Below are positions 1,012 to 54,305 of a stretch of 64,000 bases of DNA, piece by piece. Each line of letters starts with the position of its first letter. Position 1 is the stretch's first letter. Source of the stretch: Pseudomonadota bacterium. Its GTDB lineage: Bacteria > Pseudomonadota > Gammaproteobacteria > Xanthomonadales > Xanthomonadaceae. The notes under the pieces are model-generated. The model saw only the letters and a list, made by a program, of their open reading frames with translations. It was not told the DNA's origin and made no database searches. The stretch is from positions 35,262-99,261 of the forward strand of contig JAFEFT010000002.1 of the NCBI GenBank assembly GCA_018240435.1, in the 5' to 3' direction. The position numbers were made by a program, and so were the translations under genes.

Positions 1012-1076
1012 GGCTTGACTCCAGGTTGGGCGGCGACGAACGCAGCGTGCAATCCCCGCGCGCGCGGGGCGGCGTT

Positions 1077-1241
1077 CTAGGGAAGGTCTGAACAACTTTG
1101 TTTTTGATCATCATCGACCGGCTTCGCCGTTGTAAAGCGCTTCCGCGAAAGCGGGAATCCAGTGTCTTTTATTTCAACAACATAGAGTCACTGGATCCCT
1201 GCCTTCGCAGGGATGACAAGACTTATTCAGACCTTCCCTAG
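1077..1241. repeat. nested palindromic (MITE/BIME-like) element with an outer 16-bp perfect inverted repeat enclosing an inverted pair of REP hairpins around an AT-rich core
   Basis: The outer arms are CTAGGGAAGGTCTGAA (1077-1092) and TTCAGACCTTCCCTAG (1226-1241). The inner arms are ttccgcgaaagcgggaatccagtg (1141-1164) and cactggatccctgccttcgcagggatgac (1189-1217). The inner arms belong to the same cccgc-gaag-gcggg hairpin family found at 34686 and 35028. The right outer arm contains the stop codon of the sigma factor gene (1238-1240). Confidence 0.8.
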
Positions 1242-2851
1242 GACGTGGGTGGGCGCAGATTGGCGCGTGCGCGCCAGGCGAACAGCGCCGCCGGCAGCAC
1301 GCACAGCACGATCAGCAGCGCGAGCAGCAGCGGGACGAGAGGGTCGGGCAGGGCCCGTGCGAAGTACGCGCCGACCGCCGCATCGTTGGCGTGGGCGCCG
1401 AGCGCGAGGCCGCCAGCGGCGTAGTCGCGTGATACCGCCAGGGCGCCGGCAGCGCCGTGCCAGCCGGCAGCGAAACCGCCGACGGCATTCCACCCGTAGG
1501 CCGCGCCGCCGAGCGCGAGCAGGCCGAACGTGCAGCAGCCCAGCGCCAGCGGTGCGATGGCGACGGCACCAAAGGCGACGCCACCGATGGCGATACCGCC
1601 GATGGCAATGCCACCGCGGGCGACTCCGCCCATCGCGAACAGCACGCCGTCGGCGCGATCGCCGATCGCCACCCAGCCGCGCGCCGGCTCGGTGCCGGTC
1701 GTCGGCGTGTCGTAGCGCACGTGTATCAGCGGCAGGCCGAGCAGTGTCCAGCGCGAGCGATATTCGGGGCGGATGCGCAGCGCCTGTTCGCGCCGCGGAT
1801 CGAACAACTCCGGGCAGCGCAGGCGCTCGTCGGCACGCAATTGCCGCGATTCGCGCATCGCCCGCGCGATGTTCAGCGCCAGCCAGCACGCAAACCCCAG
1901 CGGCAGCAGTTGCGCGAATGCGGCGTACCACGTCGCGAACGGCAACGCGTACGGCGCCAGCACGAGCACCGCGAAGGTGGCGATCGTGTAGATCACGCTG
2001 GCGATGGCGAAACGGCGTGTCTGCGCCTGTACGGTCGCGCGCTCGCGCGGCGTGCGGGTGGCGTCGAGTTGGGCACGCACGCTGAAGTAGCTGCCGACGA
2101 AGGCGACCACGGGGCCGATCAGCGCGGTGGCGATCGCCGCCAGCCCGGTCGCCTTCGCCAGCGTGCCGCCCTGGGTGGTCGCCTTCACCGCCACCAACGC
2201 CGTCACCGTCGCCGGCGACGCCACCGGCAAGGCGGCGATCACCCCGGCGGTGAACGCTTCGGCAGGCGCCGAGCGCGCCAGCACGCCTTCGACGAACGCG
2301 CGCACCTGCTCATGCAACAGGCGACGGCCGCGCGACAGGCGTTGTTTCGCGGCGTCCTCGCTGATCGCCAACGCACTGGCGACGGTTTCGATCGACTGCT
2401 GCTCGCGGTAGAACAGCACCAGCGCTTCCCGGTAGGTCTCGGGAATGCGGTCGAGGGCGCGCCACAGCAGGGCCTGTTCCTCGGCGCTGATCGCCTGTTC
2501 GAGCGGTGCTGCCTCCGCCGTGTGCACGAACGCGGCGACGTCGATCGATTCGGCATCCTGCGTCGGCTCGCGCTGATCGCGACGCAGCGCCCCGTGGGTG
2601 CGGTTGCGCACGATGCCGCACAGCCATGCGCGCAGGCTGGCCGGTTCGCGCAGCGCCTTGAGTTGCGTCCACGCCTCGATGAAGGTTTCCTGGGCGAGGT
2701 CCTCGCTGCGGCTGAGCGATCCGGTCGCGGCATAGGCGATCGCGGCAACCAGCGACTGGTAGCGCGCGACGATCTTTCCGAACGCGGAGCGGTCACCGGC
2801 GAGCGAACGCCGGACGAGATCCTCATCGAGGGTGGTGGCGGTGGCGTCCAT
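1238..2851 (-). CDS. ECF-type sigma-70 family sigma factor fused to a long C-terminal polytopic membrane domain
   Basis: ORF track 1238..2881. The N-terminal roughly 190 aa carry sigma region 2 and region 4 signatures (LVRRSLAGDRSAFGKIVARYQSLV, ETFIEAW, ETYREALVLFYREQQSIETVASALAISEDAAKQRLSRGRRLL). About 340 aa of hydrophobic helices follow, including a Gly-rich GGIAIGGIAIGGVAFG stretch. The start is uncertain (GTG 2881, ATG 2872 or ATG 2851). Confidence 0.8.
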   Translation of the reverse strand: MDATATTLDEDLVRRSLAGDRSAFGKIVARYQSLVAAIAYAATGSLSRSEDLAQETFIEAWTQLKALREPASLRAWLCGIVRNRTHGALRRDQREPTQDAESIDVAAFVHTAEAAPLEQAISAEEQALLWRALDRIPETYREALVLFYREQQSIETVASALAISEDAAKQRLSRGRRLLHEQVRAFVEGVLARSAPAEAFTAGVIAALPVASPATVTALVAVKATTQGGTLAKATGLAAIATALIGPVVAFVGSYFSVRAQLDATRTPRERATVQAQTRRFAIASVIYTIATFAVLVLAPYALPFATWYAAFAQLLPLGFACWLALNIARAMRESRQLRADERLRCPELFDPRREQALRIRPEYRSRWTLLGLPLIHVRYDTPTTGTEPARGWVAIGDRADGVLFAMGGVARGGIAIGGIAIGGVAFGAVAIAPLALGCCTFGLLALGGAAYGWNAVGGFAAGWHGAAGALAVSRDYAAGGLALGAHANDAAVGAYFARALPDPLVPLLLALLIVLCVLPAALFAWRARANLRPPTS

Positions 2852-32561: not shown

Positions 32562-33305
32562 TCATTCCGGCGGCGGCACCATCTGAATGCAGTCGACCGG
32601 GCAGGGCGGCACGCACAGCTCGCAGCCGGTGCACAGATCGGCGATGACGGTGTGCATGCGCTGGCGTGCGCCGACGATGGCATCGACCGGACAGGCCTGG
32701 ATGCATTTGGTGCAGCCGATGCAATCGGCTTCGACGATGCGCGCCACCCGCGGTGGCTTTTCGATGCCGTGGGCCGGGTTCAACGGCTTGCGCGCGCGAC
32801 CCAGCAACTCGGCCAGCGCGGCGATGCCGGCGGCACCGCCGGGCGGGCACTGATCGATGTCGGCGACGCCATCGACGATCGCCGTGGCGTAAGGCCGACA
32901 GCCAGCGAAACTGCATTGACCGCACTGCGTCTGCGGCAGCAGACGGTCGATCGCTTCGATGCGCGCCTCGCGGTCCTTCGTGATCTCCGGCGCATGCGCG
33001 CGCCGCAGCAATCCGGGCAGCCATCCGAGCGCTGCCGCGAGCGCGCACCCAACCGCCGGTGCCGTGGTTGCCGCCAATGCGGCAAACGGTAGTGCGGCGG
33101 CGGCGGCGGCAAATACCCGCGGTCGCCACTCGCGGCGCTGGCCGGTGCTGGCGAATTCATCCAGACGCAACTGCATCGCCGGCCCGAGCGTGAGCCCGAG
33201 CACAAGTGCGATGGCGAAGGCGGCAAGCGCGAGCATGAATGCGGTCAGGCCGATGCCGGCGTCGATCGTTGCCCCACGGATTGCGCAGGCATGGCGGTTG
33301 CTCAA
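32562..33305 (-). CDS. RnfB/RsxB-like ferredoxin (one N-terminal 4Fe-4S binding module plus two 4Fe-4S ferredoxin motifs) with an extended hydrophobic N-terminus
   Basis: A 247-aa ORF with [39 protein letters not shown] and [16 protein letters not shown]. Its start codon overlaps the kmo stop by 4 nt. The true start could be an internal Met. Confidence 0.75.
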
Positions 33306-34675
33306 TCCGGATCGAGGGTGGACAGGCGATCGCGGACTGCCGCATCGAGCGCAGCAAGGTCGACATCGGCGAGACTGGTGTGTCCGCGCGTGGCCTCGAC
33401 CAGCAGTTCGCGCTGCACGCGACCGCGTGCCAGCGCCGTTGCGTACGGAATGCGCCTGAACGTGACCATGCTGTAGCGTGGCACGAAGCGTTCGGGATCG
33501 CGTTGCGCGAGCAGGCGTTCGAGTTCGCGTTGCAGCAGGAAGTCGGCGTCATCGACGCGATCGCGCATTTCCAGATAATTCTCCAGCGCCATCTGCTGGA
33601 TCGCGCAAGCGTTGGGCAGGCGCTGGGCCTGAAAGGCGGCGAAGGCCCCGGCGAAATCGTCGGCGCCGGCAATGCATGCGGCCAATGCCGCGCAGTCCTC
33701 GAAAGCGCAATTCATGCCCTGACCATGGAACGGCACCATCGCGTGCGCAGCGTCGCCGAGCAGCACCGCGCGACCGTCCAGGTGCCAGCGATCCAGATAC
33801 AGCGTCGCCAGCTGGCCGATCGGATGCGCGGCCCAGTCGGCATCGAAATCCGGGATATGCGCCAGTGCGCTGGCGAAGTCGCGTTCGAACAGCGCCCGCG
33901 CGGCGGCAGCGTCAGGCAGGGCGTCGAAGCCCGGCATGCCGTCGCTTGCCTGCAACGGCAGGAACAGGGTGACGGTGAACGTGCGTTCGGTATTCGGCAA
34001 GGCGATGCACATGTAGCGACCGCGCGGCCAGATGTGCAAGGCGTTGGGTTCGATGCGGAAGCCGCCGTCGGCGGATGGTTCTATCTCCAGTTCCTTGTAA
34101 CCGTGGCCGAGTGATTCGAAACGCTCGCCGAGCGGCGTGATTTGATCGATCGCGCCACGCAGCGCCGAGCCGGCACCATCGGCGCCGATCAACACGTCGA
34201 AGGCGTGGCCGATGCTGCTGCCGTCGCGGTCATCGACGAAGGTTGCGTGCTTCGCGTCGAAATCCACGCGATCCAGGCGTGCATGGAAATGCAGCCTGGC
34301 ACCCGCGGCTTCGGCGGCATCGAGCAACAGCAGGTTCAAGCGGCCGCGATGCACCGACCAGATCACCTCGCTGTCGTCCTTGCCGTAGCGTTGCAGGGCG
34401 GTGTGGCCGTCGGGGTGGTGGACCATGCGCCCGCGCATCATCACCGCCTGCGCCAGCACCGCCTCATGCAGCCCGGCCTGGCGCAGGGCGTGCAGGCCGC
34501 GTTCGGCCAGCGCCAGGTTGATCGAACGACCGCCTTCGTAGCCGACGCTGCGCGGATCGGCGCGTTTTTCGAATACCTCGACCTGCCATCCCGCGCGGGC
34601 GAGCAAGGTGGCAAGCAGCGCGCCGGCGAGGCCGGCGCCGGCGATGGTGAGGGTGTTCTGGGCTGATGGCTTCAT
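33302..34675 (-). CDS. kmo: kynurenine 3-monooxygenase (FAD-dependent)
   Basis: A 457-aa ORF with [20 protein letters not shown] (GxGxxG), [23 protein letters not shown] and [23 protein letters not shown] motifs. Confidence 0.85.
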
Positions 34676-35013
34676 GCTTTTGGCTCGTCATTCCCGCGAA
34701 GGCGGGAATCCACCCCATCGTTCTGACCGGTAATTTCGCACCACAAGTCCTTCCAGGAGCCATTGCGTTCTTCGATGAGGCGAATCTTCCAGTCGCGGTT
34801 CCACTTTTTCAGTTGCTTCTCGCGAACGATGGCGTTCTCCATCGTGTCGTACAGTTCGTACCAAACCAACCGTCGCACGTCGTAACGCGTGGTGAATCCC
34901 TCGACGAGGTGTTCGCGGTGCTGCCAGGTTCTCGTGACCAGGTCGCTGGTAACGCCGATGAACAAGGTGCCGGCTCTTTGACTGGCGAGTATGTAGACGG
35001 CGGGCTGCTTCAT
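34672..35013 (-). CDS. GIY-YIG (URI domain, COG2827/YhbQ-like) nuclease family protein
   Basis: A 113-aa ORF: VYILASQRAGTLFIGVTSDLVTRTWQH...REKQLKKWNRDWKIRLIEE. The last roughly 14 codons ([12 protein letters not shown]) translate the left REP arm plus flanking DNA. The stop overlaps the kmo ATG (ATGA). Confidence 0.85.
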   Translation of the reverse strand: MKQPAVYILASQRAGTLFIGVTSDLVTRTWQHREHLVEGFTTRYDVRRLVWYELYDTMENAIVREKQLKKWNRDWKIRLIEERNGSWKDLWCEITGQNDGVDSRLRGNDEPKA

Positions 35014-35055
35014 GGCTTCCGGTGGGAGTGGATTCCCGCCTTCGCGGGAATGACG
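34686..35055. mobile_element. 370-bp cassette bounded by perfect 28-bp terminal inverted repeats (REP hairpins) and carrying a GIY-YIG nuclease gene
   Basis: The left arm is CGTCATTCCCGCGAAGGCGGGAATCCAC (34686-34713). The right arm (35028-35055) is its exact reverse complement. The interior is visibly less GC-rich than the flanking genes, with many AAA/GAA/TTG codons. No target-site duplication is evident. Confidence 0.5.
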
Positions 35056-35097
35056 GCAAGAACAGATGCACGGAGCACGACGGCGAACAGGTTCAAG

Positions 35098-36405
35098 CTA
35101 GCCCGCCGTATCCCGCCACGTCGCTATCGATTCAACCAGCTTCCACGCATCGATGAAACGGTTGTACAGCGGCGTCGGTGCGACGCGGATCACGTCGGGT
35201 TCGCGCCAGTCGCCGATGATGCCTCGCGTTGCCAGGTGCTCGAACAGGGCGCGGCCGCGAGCGCGTCCACCGACCACGCGCAGGCTCAACTGGCAGCCGC
35301 GGCGATCGCGGTCGGACGGGGTGAGGATGTCGATGACGCCGTGCAATCGGCTGCGGATCAGCGCTTCGAGGTAGGCGGTCAGGTCGATCGCCTTGGCGCG
35401 CAGGCGATCCATGCCGGCGCGATGGAACACCTCCAGCGACGCGCGCAGCGGCGCCAGCGCCATGATCGGCGGATTGCTCAATTGCCAGCCATCGGCGCCC
35501 GGCGTGGGCACGAAGTCCGGGCCCATGCGGAAGCGGCTGGCCGGGTCGTGGCCCCACCAGCCGGCGAAGCGCGGGCGGTCGGTGCGGGCATGGCGCTCGT
35601 GGACGAAGCAGCCGGCGATCGCGCCCGGGCCGGCGTTGAGGTACTTGTAGCTGCACCACGCGGCGAAGTCGGCATCGGCATCGTGCAGCGCGAGCTTCAG
35701 GTTGCCGGCGGCGTGGGCGAGGTCGAAGCCGGCGACGGCGCCGCGGGCGTGCGCAAGTGCGGCGATGGCCTTCAGGTCGAAGGCCTCGCCGGTGCGGTAC
35801 TGCACGCCCGGCCACAGCACCAGCGCGATCTTCGAACCGTGCTCGGCCAATGCCCGCTCGATGCGTTCCATGCCGATCAGGCCGGTATCCGGATCGCCTT
35901 CCACTTCGATCAGCGAGGTGGCCGGATCGAAACCGTGGAAACGGATCTGCGAGGCCACCGCGTACTGGTCGGAGGGAAAGGCGCCGGCTTCGATCAGGAT
36001 CGCGTGGCGCTCGGCGGTGGGCCGGTAGAAGCCGACCATCATCAGGTGCAGGTTGGTGGTCAGCGAGTTCATCGCCACCACTTCCGAGGGCAGCGCGCCG
36101 GCGATTTCGGCCAGGTGTGCGCGGACTTCCTCGTGATAGGGCATCCACGGATGCCGGCCGTGGAAATGCGCCTCCACGCCGAGCCTGGCCCAGTCGTCCA
36201 GTTCGGTCAGCAGCGCTTCGCGGATGCCGCGCGGCTGCAGGCCCAGCGAGTTGCCGGTGAAGTAGAACTGGGTGTCTTCGCCGAGCGATGGATCGAGTGC
36301 CGGCGGGATCAGGAATTCGTCGCGAAAGCCGCGCAGCGGATCGGCGGCGTCGCGGGCGCGGGCGTCGGCTTCGGTGGCGGCCAGCGGAATGTGGGGGATG
36401 CTCAT
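35098..36405 (-). CDS. kynU: kynureninase (PLP-dependent)
   Basis: Taken from Met14 of track ORF 35098..36444 (MSIPHIPL...). It has YFTGNSLGLQP, FDLAHAAGN and the WCSYKYLNAGPG PLP-lysine region. Confidence 0.9.
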   Translation of the reverse strand: MSIPHIPLAATEADARARDAADPLRGFRDEFLIPPALDPSLGEDTQFYFTGNSLGLQPRGIREALLTELDDWARLGVEAHFHGRHPWMPYHEEVRAHLAEIAGALPSEVVAMNSLTTNLHLMMVGFYRPTAERHAILIEAGAFPSDQYAVASQIRFHGFDPATSLIEVEGDPDTGLIGMERIERALAEHGSKIALVLWPGVQYRTGEAFDLKAIAALAHARGAVAGFDLAHAAGNLKLALHDADADFAAWCSYKYLNAGPGAIAGCFVHERHARTDRPRFAGWWGHDPASRFRMGPDFVPTPGADGWQLSNPPIMALAPLRASLEVFHRAGMDRLRAKAIDLTAYLEALIRSRLHGVIDILTPSDRDRRGCQLSLRVVGGRARGRALFEHLATRGIIGDWREPDVIRVAPTPLYNRFIDAWKLVESIATWRDTAG

Positions 36406-37427
36406 GCGGTTATCCCGAAGCGCGAGGCGGGCAACCCCAGCCATTCCAGCGCGGTGCCGTGGTACAGACGCGCTTTGCCGCCATCATCCAGACCCAGGCC
36501 GTCGATGTAGCTGCCCGGCTGTTGCTCGCCAAGCGGGAACGGATAGTCGGTGCCCATCATCACCCGCTCGACGCCGACGGTGTCGAGCAGGTAACGCAGG
36601 GCGCGATCATCGGCCACCCACGAATCGAAATACATGCGCGGCAGGTACTCGCGCGGGTTGCGCGGGTTGTCGGTGGCGACGAGGTCGGGTCGCATCTTGA
36701 AGCCGTGTTCGATGCGGCCGATGGTGTACGGGAACGCGCCGCCGCCGTGCGCGAAACAAACCTTGAGTTTCGGCAGGCGCTCGAGCACGCCGCCGAAGAT
36801 CAAACAGCAGGCCGCGCGCGCCTGTTCGGCGGGCATCCCGACCAGCCACGGCAGCCAGTATTTGGGCATCGAATCCTTGCCCATCATGTCCCACGGATGC
36901 ACGAGGATCGCCGCGCCGAGTTCGCTCGCCGCGCGAAAAAAATCGAACAGCTCCGGCGCGTCGAGATTCCAGTCGTTGACGTGGCTGCCGATCTGCACGC
37001 CCTGCAGGTCGAGCTGATCCATGCAGCGTTCGAGTTCCTGGATCGCCAGCCGCGGCGATTGCAGCGGCACCGTGCCGATGCCCGCGTAATGGCGCGGGTG
37101 GCTGCGGCAGATCGCGGCGGTGTGGTCGTTGAGCGCCTGGTGCAGTTCGAGCGCGTGGTGCGGCTTGGCCCAGTAGCTGAACATCACCGGCACCGTGCTG
37201 ATCACCTGCACCTGCACGCCGAAGCGTTCGTAGTCGGCGATGCGTTCGGCCGGATCCCAAGTGTTGGACCAGATCTCGCGGAAGAATTTGCCGTCCTTGT
37301 AGATGCGGTGGCGGCCGTCGGCGGTGTGGTGGATGACCGCGAAGCGGTCGTCGCCGTACTTGGCCGCCAGATCGGGCCAGTCGCGCGGCAGGATGTGGGC
37401 GTGGACGTCGATTTTGAGCATGTTCAC
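36402..37427 (-). CDS. nbaD: 2-amino-3-carboxymuconate-6-semialdehyde decarboxylase (amidohydrolase_2 family)
   Basis: A 341-aa ORF with IDVHAHILP, ILVHPWDM, CFAHGGGAFPY and MMGTDYPFPLGE. It has a 4-nt overlap with kynU. Confidence 0.85.
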   Translation of the reverse strand: MNMLKIDVHAHILPRDWPDLAAKYGDDRFAVIHHTADGRHRIYKDGKFFREIWSNTWDPAERIADYERFGVQVQVISTVPVMFSYWAKPHHALELHQALNDHTAAICRSHPRHYAGIGTVPLQSPRLAIQELERCMDQLDLQGVQIGSHVNDWNLDAPELFDFFRAASELGAAILVHPWDMMGKDSMPKYWLPWLVGMPAEQARAACCLIFGGVLERLPKLKVCFAHGGGAFPYTIGRIEHGFKMRPDLVATDNPRNPREYLPRMYFDSWVADDRALRYLLDTVGVERVMMGTDYPFPLGEQQPGSYIDGLGLDDGGKARLYHGTALEWLGLPASRFGITA

Positions 37428-37777
37428 GACTCGGGTCGAAAGGACGCCAGCAGGTCATCGACCTGTGCCTGCAGCGGCGCCAGGCGCGTCTGGACGATGT
37501 CCCAGACCAGCCGGTCGTCTACCTCGGCGTACCCGTGGATCAGGATGTTGCGGAAAGCGATGATGCGACGGCAGTCGGTGATTCGCTCGGCCAGCGCTGC
37601 ATCGCGCCGCGCCCATTGTGCCAGCGCATCGCCGATGATCTCGAACTGGCGTTCGACCGCTGCACGCAGCATGGCGTCGTCGAGATAGCCCTGCAGGTCG
37701 CGTCCGGCGGTGAATTGCGCCAGCCTGCGGGCAGCCTGCTGGATGTCGAACAGATATTTGGCCTGCTCAAGCCGCAT
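37424..37777 (-). CDS. hepT: HepT-like (DUF86/HEPN) toxin of a type VII toxin-antitoxin pair
   Basis: Taken from Met95 of track ORF 37424..38059, giving a 117-aa protein. It has the Rx4HxY HEPN motif in AFRNILIHGY. Its stop overlaps the nbaD start by 4 nt. Confidence 0.8.
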   Translation of the reverse strand: MRLEQAKYLFDIQQAARRLAQFTAGRDLQGYLDDAMLRAAVERQFEIIGDALAQWARRDAALAERITDCRRIIAFRNILIHGYAEVDDRLVWDIVQTRLAPLQAQVDDLLASFRPES

Positions 37778-38063
37778 ACAAGGCGACCCGCTGGCGTTCG
37801 ATCGAACGGCGGAAGTAAGGATTGCGGATCGCGGCATCCACGACCAGATCGACCGGCGCGTCCAGCAGCCCCTGCAAGCCTTCGAGCAGGCCGAAATAGG
37901 CGTTGGCGTAGCCCTCCTGCAGCGCTCCGAAATCCACCAGGAAATCGTAGTCGGCGGGTGCTTCCTGCACCGTCGCCGAGCCGAACAGGTCGAGCCGGTG
38001 CACACCGTGGCGCTGGCAAAGATCCACGATGGCGGACCTACGGGACGACAGCAATGCATTCAT
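37767..38063 (-). CDS. mntA: MNT-domain nucleotidyltransferase antitoxin (MntA-like)
   Basis: A 98-aa ORF with the LFGSATVQEAPADYDFLV motif (GS...DxD nucleotidyltransferase signature). It overlaps hepT by 11 nt. Confidence 0.8.
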   Translation of the reverse strand: MNALLSSRRSAIVDLCQRHGVHRLDLFGSATVQEAPADYDFLVDFGALQEGYANAYFGLLEGLQGLLDAPVDLVVDAAIRNPYFRRSIERQRVALYAA

Positions 38064-38699: not shown

Positions 38700-39185
38700 G
38701 ACGATGGGTTGCGCGGTGCGCAACCCATCCTGCAGGCTGACTCTTTTCCGGCGCGGTGCGCAACCCCTCCTGCGGGATGACCCTTCTCCCTTCGGGAGAA
38801 GGTGGCGCGCAGCGCCGGATGAGGGGTCGTCGGCTCGTGGAGTTGGCGGGCGCTTCGGCCCCTCACCCCAACCCCTCTCCCGGTGGGAGAGGGGCTTTGT
38901 CCTTCTCCCTTCGGGAGAAGAGCCTGCCCCCGCGAAGGCGGGGGTGGCGCGCAGCGCCGGATGAGGGGCCGTCGCGCCGTGGAGTTGGCAGGTGCTTCGG
39001 CCCCTCACCCCAACCCCTCTCCCGGTGGGAGAGGGGCTTTGTCCTTCTCCCTTCGGGAGAAGAGCCTGCCCCCGCGAAGGCGGGGGTGGCGCGTAGCGCC
39101 GGATGAGGGGCCGTCGCGCCGTGGAGTTGGCAGGTGCTGCGGCCCCTCACCCCAACCCCTCTCCCGGTGGGAGAGGGGCTTCAGG
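38700..39185. repeat. mosaic of palindromic REP-type units, including about 2.7 tandem copies of a 142-bp composite repeat
   Basis: The phase marker cccctcacccc recurs at 38859, 39001 and 39143, giving a period of 142. Each unit contains the hairpins ccctctccc-ggt-gggagaggg, ccttctccc-ttc-gggagaagag and ctgcccccgc-gaag-gcgggggtgg. Two gcggtgcgcaaccc..tcctgc.gg.tgac units lie upstream at about 38712 and 38752. Confidence 0.9.
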
Positions 39186-43120: not shown

Positions 43121-43585
43121 GCTGGAAGTGGAACGGTTGCCGTCCGTGGTTCGACAGGCTCACCACGAACGGTGCTTGGGGAATGCGGGACAGGCGCATC
43201 AGGGACGGCGATGGGCTCACCACGAGCGGCCTCTCCCTTCCACCGTTCGCCCTGAGCCTGTCGAAGGGTGAGCGGGCGAGGGGTTGATCGTGGTTCGACA
43301 GGCCTGTCCTGAGCTTGTCGAAGGGCTCACCACGAACGGTGCTTGGGGAATCCGGGACAGGCGCATCAGGGACGGTTGCCGTCCGTGGTTCGACAGGCTC
43401 ACCACGAACGGTGCTTGGGGAATGCGGGACAGGCGCATCAGGGACGGTTGCCGTCCGTGGTTCGACAGGCTCACCACGAACGGTATTCGGGGGAATGCGG
43501 TGCTTGGGGGAATGCGGGACAGGCTCACCACGAACGGTTTTCGGGGAAATGCGGGGTTGGCTCGCCACGAACGGAATGGAGTGCA
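43121..43585. repeat. array of palindromic repeat units (72-bp unit present 3 times, plus one 108-bp-family unit and degenerate copies)
   Basis: The 72-bp unit gacggttgccgtccgtggttcgacaggctcaccacgaacggtgcttggggaatgcgggacaggcgcatcagg starts at 43131, 43371 and 43443. A ccaccgttcgccctgagcctgtcgaagggtgagcgggcgaggggttgatcgtggttcgacagg unit lies at about 43240-43300 and matches the 53883-54300 family. Confidence 0.9.
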
Positions 43586-53834: not shown

Positions 53835-54305
53835 GGGCTCACCAAGAACGGGTCGGCGCGCCCGCCACGAGCGGCTTCGCCCTTCCGCCATTCGCCCTGA
53901 GCCTGTCGAAGGGTGAGCGGGCGAGGGGTTGATCGTGGTTCGACAGGCTCACCACGAACGGCAGTGGGCTCACCACGAACGGACTTGCCCTTCCACCGTT
54001 CGCCCTGAGCCTGTCGAAGGGTGAGCGGGCAAGGGATTGATCGTGGTTCGACAGGCTCACCACGAACGGCAATGGGCTCACCACGAATGGCCTTGCCCTT
54101 CCACCGTTCGCCCTGAGCCTGTCGAAGGGTGAGCGGGCAAGGGATTGATCGTGGTTCGACAGGCTCACCACGAACGGCAATGGGCTCACCACGAACGGCC
54201 TTGCCCTTCCACCGTTCGCCCTGAGCTTGTCGAAGGGTGAGCGGGCGAGGGACTGGTCGTGGTTCGACAGGCTGTCCTGAGCCTGTCGAAGGGCTCGCCG
54301 CGAAT
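53835..54305. repeat. about 4 tandem copies of a 108-bp composite palindromic repeat
   Basis: The phase marker ttcc(a/g)cc(g/a)tt recurs at 53883, 53991, 54099 and 54207. The unit contains ccaccgttcgccctgagcctgtcgaagggtgagcgggcaaggg and gatcgtggttcgacaggctcaccacgaacgg hairpins. It translates to the familiar FDRLRANG / SLSKGE shadow peptides. Confidence 0.92.

What the first reader, a model, noticed from the sequence alone, without database searches (positions are those of the whole stretch)
34672..35055. GIY-YIG nuclease gene bracketed by perfect 28-bp inverted REP hairpins, inserted between kynU and kmo
**What the sequence shows**
- CGTCATTCCCGCGAAGGCGGGAATCCAC occurs at 34686-34713. Its exact reverse complement occurs at 35028-35055.
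- Together they enclose only a 113-codon GIY-YIG (YhbQ/COG2827-type) ORF.
- Each arm is itself a stem-loop (cccgc-gaag-gcggg).
- The interior is visibly less GC-rich than the flanking catabolic genes.
- The ORF runs through the left arm, which encodes DSRLRGNDE, and stops in flanking DNA on an ATGA that overlaps the kmo start.

**Why it matters**
- REP elements are known to be mobilised by RAYT (Y1) transposases.
- A REP-bounded GIY-YIG unit would be a different pairing, and I am not aware of it being characterised.
- It looks like either a selfish homing-type cassette or a domesticated insertion now translationally coupled into a metabolic operon.
- An apparently empty version of the same inverted REP pair sits at 1141-1217.
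Basis: partly seen in the sequence, partly recalled or inferred. Interest (0 to 1): 0.62.

Follow-up and report, generated by a model that had tools for sequence, protein, structure and literature searches.

The report
Ssn hairpin-cutting nuclease cassette in kynurenine operon
The small GIY-YIG gene and its two inverted hairpins are real and belong together, but they are a new example of the Ssn nuclease and NTS hairpin pair described in 2025, here inserted between two kynurenine-pathway genes and carrying an unusual change at a catalytic tyrosine.

Summary
A perfect 28-nt inverted repeat (34686-34713 / 35028-35055) brackets one 113-codon GIY-YIG ORF (34672-35013, minus strand) between kynU and kmo.

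- **Identity.** The arms match the published NTS motif at 27 of 28 positions. The protein is 77% identical to N. meningitidis SsnA. This is therefore an NTS-ssn-NTS module of the Ssn family (Chenal et al. 2025, PMC11893778): a single-domain nuclease that binds this hairpin in single-stranded DNA and cuts just 5' of it. The pairing is already characterised.
- **Generality.** 43 of 74 homologous loci from many phyla show the same bracket.
- **Insertion.** The nearest relatives without the cassette have a kynU stop overlapping the kmo start, so the cassette is a lineage-specific insertion. The same junction is occupied in four separate Lysobacterales clades, twice by pseudogenes.
- **Selection.** In the window's lineage the gene was under purifying selection (dN/dS about 0.1) and now ends on an ATGA shared with kmo.
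- **This allele.** It has Phe at the otherwise near-invariant second catalytic Tyr (F18), so cleavage may be lost.

Whether the cassette moves by its own nuclease remains open.

The parts
34672..35013 (-). ssn gene: 113-aa single-domain GIY-YIG nuclease of the Ssn family. The core is residues 1-96 (34726-35013). The tail, residues 97-113, is translated from the downstream hairpin and spacer.
   Evidence: - ORF listed; Pfam PF01541 at E 4.4e-14.
- 77% identity over 92 aa to the 94-aa N. meningitidis protein P0085, E 2e-54.
- AF2 model has pLDDT 81 in the core and about 50 for the last ~14 residues (from about 100).
- Best fold matches are GIY-YIG domains: 1ZG2, Slx1, UvrC.
- dN/dS is 0.10 against the L169 orthologue.
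35028..35055 (-). Upstream NTS/SRM hairpin. It reads CGTCATTCCCGCGAAGGCGGGAATCCAC on the gene (minus) strand, with the CGTCA tag pointing outwards.
   Evidence: It matches the NTS consensus CGTCATTCCCGCGMAVGCGGGAATCYRG at 27 of 28 positions (consensus from PMC11893778).
34686..34713 (+). Downstream NTS/SRM hairpin. It is the same 28-mer read on the plus strand, with the tag pointing outwards. It lies inside the 3' end of the ssn ORF and encodes DSRLRGND.
   Evidence: -.
- The hairpin DNA is identical in the L169 orthologue, although ssn there has dS of about 0.9.
34960..34962 (-). Codon 18, TTC = Phe, at the second tyrosine of the GIY-YIG motif (Y17 of SsnA).
   Evidence: - Tyr in 82 of 84 genome loci and in 120 of 120 best database hits.
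- The 97%-identical sister allele P0001/L170 has TAC.
- SsnA Y17A binds but does not cut.
- SLX1 Y29F is used as a nuclease-dead control (PMC8287910).
34672..34675 (-). ATGA overlap: the ssn stop codon TGA and the kmo start codon ATG share these bases.
   Evidence: -.
- The same overlap is present in L169 and L170.
- The kmo ATG is the ancestral one: the N-terminus has the same 12 codons as in the empty-site relative L081.
35056..35097 (-). 42-nt spacer between the kynU stop codon and the upstream hairpin. It is part of the inserted DNA.
   Evidence: -.
- It is absent from the empty junctions of L081 and L082.
- The corresponding spacer is only 3 nt in L169.
35098..36444 (-). kynU (kynureninase), upstream neighbour in the operon.
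   Evidence: TIGR01814 at E 1.3e-134.
33302..34675 (-). kmo (kynurenine 3-monooxygenase), downstream neighbour in the operon.
   Evidence: E 3e-155 to the Pseudomonas fluorescens KMO structures 6FOX/5FN0.
1140..1222 (.). Gene-less, diverged NTS-like doublet of the same polarity as the cassette. The arms are 1140-1162 and 1194-1222, with a 31-nt spacer. It is nested inside an outer 23-nt inverted repeat (1073-1095 / 1223-1245).
   Evidence: (I8).

Best explanation
This is an NTS-ssn-NTS module. It consists of a gene for a member of the Ssn family of small single-domain GIY-YIG nucleases, flanked on both sides by that family's cognate recognition hairpin (NTS/SRM) in inverted orientation, with the CGTCA tags outwards.

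**Shown elsewhere for SsnA and three homologues.** The protein binds the hairpin only when the DNA is single-stranded. It binds only the tagged strand. It cuts a few nucleotides 5' of the tag.

**Inferred for this locus.**
- Each strand of the cassette carries one cuttable site at its own 5' edge: near 34680-34685 on the plus strand and near 35056-35061 on the minus strand.
- The nuclease also acts on other NTS copies in the genome, or on incoming single-stranded DNA.

**Shown here by comparison.**
- The cassette was inserted into an ancestral kynU/kmo stop-start overlap, in the ancestor of the window's lineage.
- It lies in the operon's orientation. No sigma-70-type promoter or intrinsic terminator was found in it.
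- It stayed under purifying selection.
- Its ORF now ends on an ATGA shared with kmo. Translation of kmo is therefore probably coupled to ssn rather than to kynU.
- This strain's allele has Phe at the second catalytic tyrosine (inferred consequence: it may bind the hairpin but cut poorly or not at all).
For: **Identity**
- The arm matches the published NTS motif at 27 of 28 positions. The match includes the GTC just 5' of the palindrome and the C just 3' of it, which the paper found critical for cutting and binding.
- The protein is 77% identical to the 94-aa N. meningitidis protein whose Y6/Y17/E64 numbering fits the published mutants.
- It matches the Pfam GIY-YIG domain and the model has a GIY-YIG fold.

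**Gene and hairpins as a unit**
- Of 74 homologue loci with both flanks available, 54 have a forward tagged hairpin within 200 nt upstream. 56 have a reverse one within 200 nt downstream, and 43 have both.
- The background density is 0.15 per kb.

**Insertion**
- (window, L170), L169 form a cassette-bearing clade (support 100/99).
- Its sister L081, and also L082, carry the identical empty junction TGGCGCGATGCGACCTGA.

**Function retained over time**
- dN/dS is 0.10 (0.07 in the core) at dS of about 0.9-1.4 against L169.
- The hairpin DNA and the ATGA overlap are conserved in L169.

**Co-transcription**
- No sigma-70-like promoter, and no terminator on the gene strand, was found in the cassette.

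**F18**
-.

**Other NTS sites probably in the same genome**
- Gene-less doublets have contig depths that track the organism's depth across runs. One gives 160.7/168.7, 20/20.9 and 10.8/12.2. Another gives 141.9/168.7 and 8.81/8.84.
Against: - No biochemistry was done on this protein.
- F18 removes a hydroxyl that is essential in SLX1. The alanine mutant at this position is dead in SsnA. The nuclease step may therefore not operate in this strain.
- The biological role outside Neisseria is unknown. The paper's role is restriction of NTS-bearing transforming DNA, and natural competence of this activated-sludge Lysobacterales bacterium is not known.
- Only two perfect NTS copies and one diverged doublet lie in the 64-kb window.
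- CDD cd10448 membership could not be computed.
Confidence: 0.85

Rival explanations
1. The cassette is, or recently was, a self-mobilising element. In this reading Ssn nicks each strand at the outer edge of its hairpin, and replication or repair copies or excises the unit. The gene-less doublets would be its non-autonomous derivatives, as MITEs or REPINs are.
For: - The same kynU-kmo junction is occupied in four separate clades of the kynU+kmo tree. The alternative needs nine or more losses, several of them restoring an exact stop/start overlap.
- The cassette's GC content is 8-15 points below its flanks.
- The protein is 77% identical to the one in Neisseria, across classes.
- The contexts of homologues differ widely.
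- Convergent gene-less doublets (40) outnumber divergent ones (22).
- The paper's authors note the resemblance to insertion sequences.
Against: - There is no target-site duplication at the window's ends.
- The exact protein occurs in one context only, on 14 contigs from several studies.
- The gene shows long vertical inheritance under purifying selection.
- A hydrolytic GIY-YIG nuclease has no strand-transfer chemistry.
- The inverted arms give only one cut per strand.
- The family is almost absent from plasmids (33 of 72,556 records, mostly chromids or chromosomes) and absent from phages.
- Monophyly of the junction-borne ssn genes is not rejected (p-AU 0.68), so one old insertion remains possible.
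- Empty junctions show no resemblance to an NTS half-site.
Confidence: 0.25
2. In this strain the gene no longer works as a nuclease. The ORF persists as a hairpin-binding protein, or merely as the translated spacer that keeps kmo translationally coupled.
For: - F18 replaces a tyrosine present in 120 of 120 and in 82 of 84 relatives.
- The window also departs from the majority residue at N14, H55 and P85, and sits on a long terminal branch (0.44 against a median of 0.22).
- Against the 97% sister allele there are 3 nonsynonymous changes to 1 synonymous.
- SsnA Y17A binds but does not cut. SLX1 Y29F is nuclease-dead.
- Orthologous cassettes in L. soli (L137, in-frame stop) and P. yeongjuensis (L134, frameshift) are pseudogenes, so the gene is dispensable.
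- A stop or frameshift here would uncouple kmo.
Against: - Tyr to Phe has not been tested in any Ssn protein.
- Four differences are too few to show relaxed selection.
- The ORF is intact and identical in at least five independent studies.
- The other catalytic residues (Y7, R28, H32, E65, N72) are kept.
Confidence: 0.35
3. Ssn is a domesticated, single-copy host enzyme that disperses or maintains the NTS hairpins. This would parallel RAYT transposases and their REP/REPIN repeats. The flanking hairpins would mark the gene as the family's source.
For: - The gene is flanked by inverted copies of its own repeat, as RAYT genes are.
- The published figure is that 81% of genomes with more than 200 SRM repeats have an ssn gene.
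- NTS arms reach 6-60 times the local depth in metagenomes where the organism is abundant.
- Gene-less doublets probably lie in the same genome.
Against: - The protein is a GIY-YIG hydrolase, not an HUH/Y1 transposase.
- No mechanism for copying hairpins is known.
- Some genomes carry several ssn copies: Neisseria viridiae L019/L020/L044, and two copies in L080.
- The summed metagenome depth includes other organisms.
Confidence: 0.15
4. The hairpins are ordinary intergenic palindromes, such as terminators, mRNA stabilisers or regulatory sites, that happen to lie next to an unrelated small nuclease gene.
For: - The hairpins sit in an operon's intercistronic spaces.
- The paper's authors first considered a regulatory role.
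Against: - The arms are oriented and tagged, and they are conserved around homologues from many phyla at about 50-fold over background.
- No T-tract follows them.
- Direct binding and cutting are shown for four homologues.
- No Rfam family reaches its threshold.
Confidence: 0.03

Closest known systems
Ssn nuclease family with NTS/SRM hairpins (SsnA of Neisseria meningitidis, NMV_0044; CDD cd10448; Chenal et al., Nat Commun 2025, PMC11893778)
   Same: - A single-domain GIY-YIG protein, 77% identical to SsnA over 92 aa.
- The same tagged hairpin, matching at 27 of 28 positions.
- The same NTS-gene-NTS architecture.
- The same wide taxonomic spread.
   Different: - The host is a Lysobacterales bacterium from activated sludge.
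- The cassette sits inside a kynurenine-degradation operon.
- The ORF is extended by 17 codons through the downstream hairpin to an ATGA overlap with kmo.
- The hairpin polarity around the gene (tags outwards) is the reverse of that in the Neisseria loci L019/L020.
- The Y17-equivalent residue is Phe.
RAYT (REP-associated Y1 transposase) with REP/REPIN/BIME repeats
   Same: - A small gene flanked by inverted copies of a dispersed hairpin repeat.
- The hairpin is recognised as single-stranded DNA.
- Gene-less inverted doublets exist elsewhere.
   Different: - Unrelated protein fold and chemistry: a GIY-YIG hydrolase versus an HUH tyrosine transposase with a covalent intermediate.
- Dispersal of the hairpins by Ssn has not been shown.
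IS200/IS605 'peel and paste' single-strand transposons
   Same: - Subterminal hairpins are recognised on one strand.
- No target duplication.
- Seamless empty sites would be expected.
   Different: - IS200/IS605 has both hairpins on the same strand and a Y1 transposase.
- Here the hairpins are on opposite strands, and the enzyme only hydrolyses.
GIY-YIG homing endonucleases (I-TevI, Seg proteins)
   Same: - A GIY-YIG catalytic domain.
- A small selfish-looking gene inserted between host genes.
   Different: - No DNA-binding or linker domains.
- No hits in phages or PHROGs.
- The characterised relatives do not cut double-stranded DNA.
UPF0213 / YhbQ-type stand-alone GIY-YIG proteins (e.g. BH0048, PDB 1ZG2) and Slx1
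   Same: They are the best structural matches, with a stand-alone domain of about 95 aa.
   Different: - Only 24-25% identity.
- No sequence-level PDB hit.
- They are not known to be paired with flanking hairpins.

Membership tests
Ssn family (cd10448) | Single-domain GIY-YIG protein of about 94-100 aa, with no accessory DNA-binding domain | tested here: met
   - PF01541 is the only Pfam hit, covering residues 5-77.
- The AF2 core spans residues 1-96, with GIY-YIG fold matches.
- The tail from about residue 100 has low confidence and is translated hairpin DNA.
Ssn family (cd10448) | Close homology to experimentally characterised SsnA | tested here: met
   - 71 of 92 residues identical, E 2e-54, to the 94-aa N. 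meningitidis protein P0085.
- Y6, Y17 and E64 of P0085 fit the paper's mutants.
Ssn family (cd10448) | Assignment to CDD cd10448, or placement inside the Ssn clade of a GIY-YIG superfamily tree | not testable with these tools
   - No CDD library is on hand.
- NCBIfam gives no hit.
- Only a within-family tree was built.
Ssn family (cd10448) | Gene flanked by oriented NTS/SRM hairpins | tested here: met
   - Both sides carry the hairpin, as a perfect 28-nt inverted pair matching the NTS consensus at 27 of 28 positions.
- 43 of 74 homologue loci show the same arrangement.
Ssn family (cd10448) | Complete catalytic set (GIY Tyr, YIG Tyr, Arg, His, Glu, Asn), as needed for cleavage | tested here: not met
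   - Y7, R28, H32, E65 and N72 are present, but the YIG tyrosine is F18.
- This bears on the activity of this allele, not on its descent. The 97%-identical allele P0001, in the same locus of a sister strain, has Y18.
Ssn family (cd10448) | Binds the NTS only as single-stranded DNA and cuts a few nucleotides 5' of it | not testable with these tools
   This needs purified protein and labelled oligonucleotides.
RAYT / REP system | HUH Y1 transposase (Y1_Tnp) encoded between the repeats | tested here: not met
   The only domain present is GIY-YIG.
Insertion sequence | A transposase of a known class, a target-site duplication, and several near-identical copies | tested here: not met
   - No transposase domain.
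- The flanks GCTTTTGGCT and GCAAGAACAG share no direct repeat.
- The exact protein is found in a single context.
- The copy number in the genome itself could not be tested.
GIY-YIG homing endonuclease | A nuclease domain joined to a DNA-binding domain, carried in an intron or a phage intergenic region | tested here: not met
   Single domain, no phage matches, no PHROG family.

The most novel reading that the evidence does not exclude
NTS-ssn-NTS is a mobile cassette of a mechanistically new kind. A hydrolytic, single-strand-specific GIY-YIG nickase marks the 5' edge of the unit on each strand. Host replication or repair then copies the unit in, or removes it seamlessly. Under this reading, the occupancy of one and the same kynU/kmo stop-start overlap in four separate Lysobacterales clades would reflect repeated precise insertion or excision. 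The exact ancestral overlaps in their sister lineages would fit the same picture. The gene-less convergent doublets would be its non-autonomous form.
Probability: 0.22. Interest if true: 0.7.

Novelty: new member of a known kind. Interest (0 to 1): 0.3.

Why it matters
The finding does not reveal a new system. It does add three useful things to a family described only in 2025, whose role outside Neisseria is unknown.

1. **A dated insertion with defined empty sites.** The cassette entered a translationally coupled gene pair, and the same junction is occupied or empty in a patchwork across related genera. This is the kind of comparative evidence needed to test the published, untested idea that NTS-ssn-NTS behaves like a mobile element.
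2. **Long-term integration into a host operon.** The cassette shows purifying selection, a conserved ATGA overlap with kmo and co-orientation with the operon. Domestication need not involve the nuclease function alone.
3. **A natural variant at a catalytic tyrosine.** The Tyr-to-Phe change occurs in a strain seen in many wastewater, wetland and soil data sets. It offers a ready-made pair of alleles (F18 and Y18) for separating binding from cutting.

Tried and rejected
- **Whole-genome tools.** The copy numbers of ssn and NTS in the window's own genome are therefore unknown.
- **Literature search.** 'GIY-YIG' plus 'repetitive extragenic palindromic' found nothing. The lead to the Ssn paper came from earlier notes and was then checked in the paper itself. 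No later paper on Ssn mobility was found.
- **Faulty hairpin scan.** My first regular-expression scan for tagged hairpins failed because of greedy loop matching. It was redone correctly.
- **Pseudo-NTS target idea.** I asked whether the junction is targeted because the kynU 3' end resembles an NTS half-site. One empty site (L105) matches at 12 of 13 positions. Across 29 empty junctions, however, the mean best match is 8.3, against 8.2 for control positions. Rejected.
- **Recent sweep of the cassette between strains.** Against L170 the cassette has 4 differences in 376 nt. Other 200-nt bins of the locus also have 0-2 differences, and the locus is heterogeneous throughout. Not supported.
- **N. 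viridiae short contig.** The 432-nt, high-coverage contig L019 is not evidence of recent transposition. It is 94.7% identical, not identical, to the copy in L020.
- **ssn tree.** With only 96 columns it cannot decide between one origin and several origins for the junction-borne copies.
- **Database searches that returned nothing.** No PDB sequence relative, no defence-system family, no PHROG family, and no Rfam family above threshold (the FtrB hit scored 25.9 bits against a gathering score of 66).
Full report
**1. The observation**

The 28-mer CGTCATTCCCGCGAAGGCGGGAATCCAC lies at 34686-34713 on the plus strand. Its exact reverse complement lies at 35028-35055. No such pair is expected by chance, and the repeat extends to 31 nt at 97%. 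Each arm folds as single-stranded DNA into an 8-bp stem with a 4-nt loop, at about -8.9 kcal/mol.

Between the arms lies one credible gene, the 113-codon ORF 34672-35013 on the minus strand. Its only Pfam domain is GIY-YIG (E 4.4e-14). The interior has 56-59% GC against 65-74% in the flanks. The ORF reads through the 34686-34713 arm, and its TGA shares an ATGA with the next start codon.

The neighbours are kynureninase (TIGR01814, E 1.3e-134) and kynurenine 3-monooxygenase (E 3e-155 to PDB 6FOX/5FN0). The 'empty pair' at 1141-1217 is a diverged doublet of the same polarity. One arm has lost the CGTCA tag, and the other has compensated stem changes.

**2. The bracket is general**

A scan of one genome per species found more than 575 relatives. 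The best 80 come from Lysobacterales, Neisseria, Pseudomonas, Planctomycetota, Nitrospirota, Chloroflexota, Acidobacteriota and others. I searched these for an oriented motif: GTCNT followed by a perfect 6-bp GC-rich stem.

Of the 74 loci with both flanks available:
- 54 have a forward copy within 200 nt upstream;
- 56 have a reverse copy within 200 nt downstream of codon 96;
- 43 have both.

The background density is 0.15 per kb more than 300 nt away (the raw inverted repeats are). Gene and hairpins therefore belong together.

**3. It is a known system**

Earlier notes of this scan pointed to Chenal et al. 2025 (PMC11893778), which I then read. The paper makes these points:
- It defines the NTS motif CGTCATTCCCGCGMAVGCGGGAATCYRG.
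- It shows that homologues of N. meningitidis SsnA (94 aa, single GIY-YIG domain, CDD cd10448) are flanked by such motifs: 71% on at least one side and 42% on both.
- SsnA and three homologues bind the hairpin only as single-stranded DNA, only on the tagged strand, and cut a few nucleotides 5' of it.
- Y6A, Y17A and E64A abolish cutting but not binding.
- In N. meningitidis the enzyme lowers transformation by NTS-bearing DNA.
- The authors remark that NTS-ssnA-NTS looks like an insertion sequence and resembles the RAYT/REP pairing. They do not test mobility.

The window's arm matches the motif at 27 of 28 positions. The match includes the bases the paper found critical. The window protein is 77% identical over 92 residues (E 2e-54) to the 94-aa N. 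meningitidis protein P0085, whose numbering fits the published mutants.

An AlphaFold model has pLDDT 81, with a well-predicted core (residues 1-96) and a low-confidence tail. Its best structural matches are GIY-YIG domains: UPF0213 BH0048, Slx1 and UvrC. No sequence relative has a solved structure. No later paper on the family's mobility was found.

**4. The cassette is an insertion into a coupled gene pair**

The exact protein is encoded on 14 contigs from several studies. It is always between kynU and kmo, and the eight loci shown are 100% identical wherever they overlap the 3.1-kb kynU-ssn-kmo stretch. Two closer relatives exist:
- P0001 (97% identical) lies in the same context (L170).
- P0002 (82% identical) also lies in the same context (L169). 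It too is 113 aa long and ends on the ATGA overlap with kmo.

On a kynU+kmo tree, (window, L170), L169 form a clade (support 100/99). Its sister L081, and also L082, lack the cassette. Both have the identical junction TGGCGCGATGCGACCTGA, in which the kmo ATG lies 8 nt before the kynU stop. Other empty relatives have ATGA or TGATG overlaps. The kmo N-terminus in the window has the same 12 codons as in L081, so the kmo ATG is ancestral. The insert sits immediately upstream of it, replacing the last kynU codons.

**5. Selection and decay**

- Against L169, ssn has dN/dS of 0.10 (0.07 in the core) at dS of about 0.9-1.4. The downstream hairpin DNA is unchanged. The gene has therefore been functional while resident in the operon.
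- No sigma-70-like promoter and no terminator on the gene strand were found inside the cassette. All junction-borne copies are co-oriented with the operon.
- The window allele is odd. It has A14, F18, Y55 and G85 where 70-82 of 84 genome-locus relatives have N, Y, H and P. F18 is unique among the 120 best database hits.
- Its 97% sister allele has Y18. The two differ by three nonsynonymous changes and one synonymous change.
- The equivalent Tyr-to-Phe mutant of yeast SLX1 (Y29F) is used as a nuclease-dead control (PMC8287910). This allele may therefore bind but not cut. That is an inference.

**6. A patchy junction**

Among 80 kynU loci, the junction state varies:
- Most junctions are empty.
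- Several carry unrelated inserts, such as a GGDEF-domain (diguanylate-cyclase-type) gene in one Arenimonas locus (L095).
- In L120 the insert is an NTS-like hairpin followed by a lysozyme-like (glycoside hydrolase family 25) gene.

An ssn cassette sits at the same junction in four separate clades:
1. the window's clade;
2. Chiayiivirga L091, whose sister L105 is empty;
3. Lysobacter arvi and L. soli;
4. Pseudoxanthomonas L121 and L134.

Two further Pseudoxanthomonas loci (L021, L073) also carry ssn at this junction, but were not on the kynU+kmo tree.

Two of these copies are pseudogenes: L137 has an in-frame stop and L134 a frameshift.

The host-gene tree needs four gains. Alternatively it needs one old gain with nine or more losses, several of which would have to restore an exact overlap. 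The ssn tree has only 96 columns. On it the junction-borne copies cluster (0 of 500 shuffles reach as few changes), and their monophyly is not rejected (p-AU 0.68).

I cannot decide between repeated insertion, seamless loss and allele replacement by recombination. A pseudo-NTS target at the junction is not supported.

**7. Mobility in general**

For mobility:
- low GC content of the cassette;
- near-identical proteins across classes;
- diverse contexts among homologues;
- an excess of convergent gene-less doublets (40 against 22).

In metagenomes where the organism is abundant, the arms reach 6-60 times the local depth. Two gene-less doublets have depths that track the organism's depth across runs. 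They are therefore probably in the same genome.

Against mobility:
- no target duplication at the ends;
- a single context for the exact protein;
- a long vertical history under selection;
- near-absence from plasmids and absence from phages;
- a hydrolytic enzyme with no strand-transfer chemistry;
- one cuttable site per strand only.

**8. Verdict**

This is a new member of the Ssn/NTS kind. It has three locally interesting features: a datable insertion into a coupled gene pair, translational capture by kmo, and a natural Phe at a catalytic tyrosine.

Noticed in passing
window 1073-1245: The diverged NTS-like doublet (1140-1162 / 1194-1222) is nested inside an outer 23-nt inverted repeat: CGTTCTAGGGAAGGTCTGAACAA / TTATTCAGACCTTCCCTAGGACG, 91% complementary. 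The result is a composite palindromic element of about 170 bp in an intergenic region.
   Followed up: partly
window 43150-43484 and 53887-54178: A second, unrelated hairpin repeat family (TTCGACAGGCTCACCACGAACGG and its complement CCGTTCGCCCTGAGCCTGTCGAA) forms arrays at two places in the window.
   Followed up: no
window 38899-39085: There are two copies, 142 nt apart, of a unit holding the hairpins GTCCTTCTCCCTTCGGGAGA and CCCCGCGAAGGCGGGGG. The latter shares the GAAG loop with NTS but has a different stem.
   Followed up: no
window about 37424-38063 (-): A MntA-like nucleotidyltransferase and a HepT-like gene, a toxin-antitoxin-type pair, sit inside the operon between the 3-hydroxyanthranilate dioxygenase gene and the Amidohydro_2 (ACMSD-like) gene. 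This is another small insert in the same operon.
   Followed up: no
L120:2436-3373: A relative has, at the same kynU-kmo junction, an NTS-like hairpin (CCGTCATGCCCGCGAAGGCCGGCATCCAG) with a leader resembling the window's (…CACCGAACCATG). It is followed by a 937-nt insert encoding a GH25 lysozyme-like protein, with no downstream hairpin.
   Followed up: partly
L137:4335-4655 and L134:4355-4683: The ssn copies at the kynU-kmo junction of Lysobacter soli (GAA to TGA, an in-frame stop) and Pseudoxanthomonas yeongjuensis (a frameshift) are pseudogenes. Their hairpins are kept.
   Followed up: partly
L019, L020, L024 (Neisseria): Around the Neisseria ssnA copies the nearest hairpins have the opposite polarity to the window's: a reverse arm about 120 nt upstream and a forward arm right after the stop codon. 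About a fifth to a quarter of the 74 loci also hold an arm of the opposite polarity near the gene.
   Followed up: partly
window 34352-35058, in runs X10 and X11: An 822-nt metagenome contig at depth 69 (the window organism is at about 9 in these runs) carries a cassette with no differences listed. The adjoining kmo 5' region is about 3% diverged (34496-34631) and then about 30% diverged (34391-34495). This is either a recombination mosaic or an assembly chimera at the repeat.
   Followed up: partly
window 34654/35185, in runs X5 and X13: Contigs of a roughly 80%-identical relative join kmo codon 8 directly to the kynU 3' end. This is an empty junction present in the same communities.
   Followed up: no
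P0001-P0120: About a fifth of the best homologues (25 of 120) also read through the downstream hairpin in the same frame, giving an ...SRLRGND... tail. The tail is therefore a common by-product of the hairpin and not special to this locus.
   Followed up: yes
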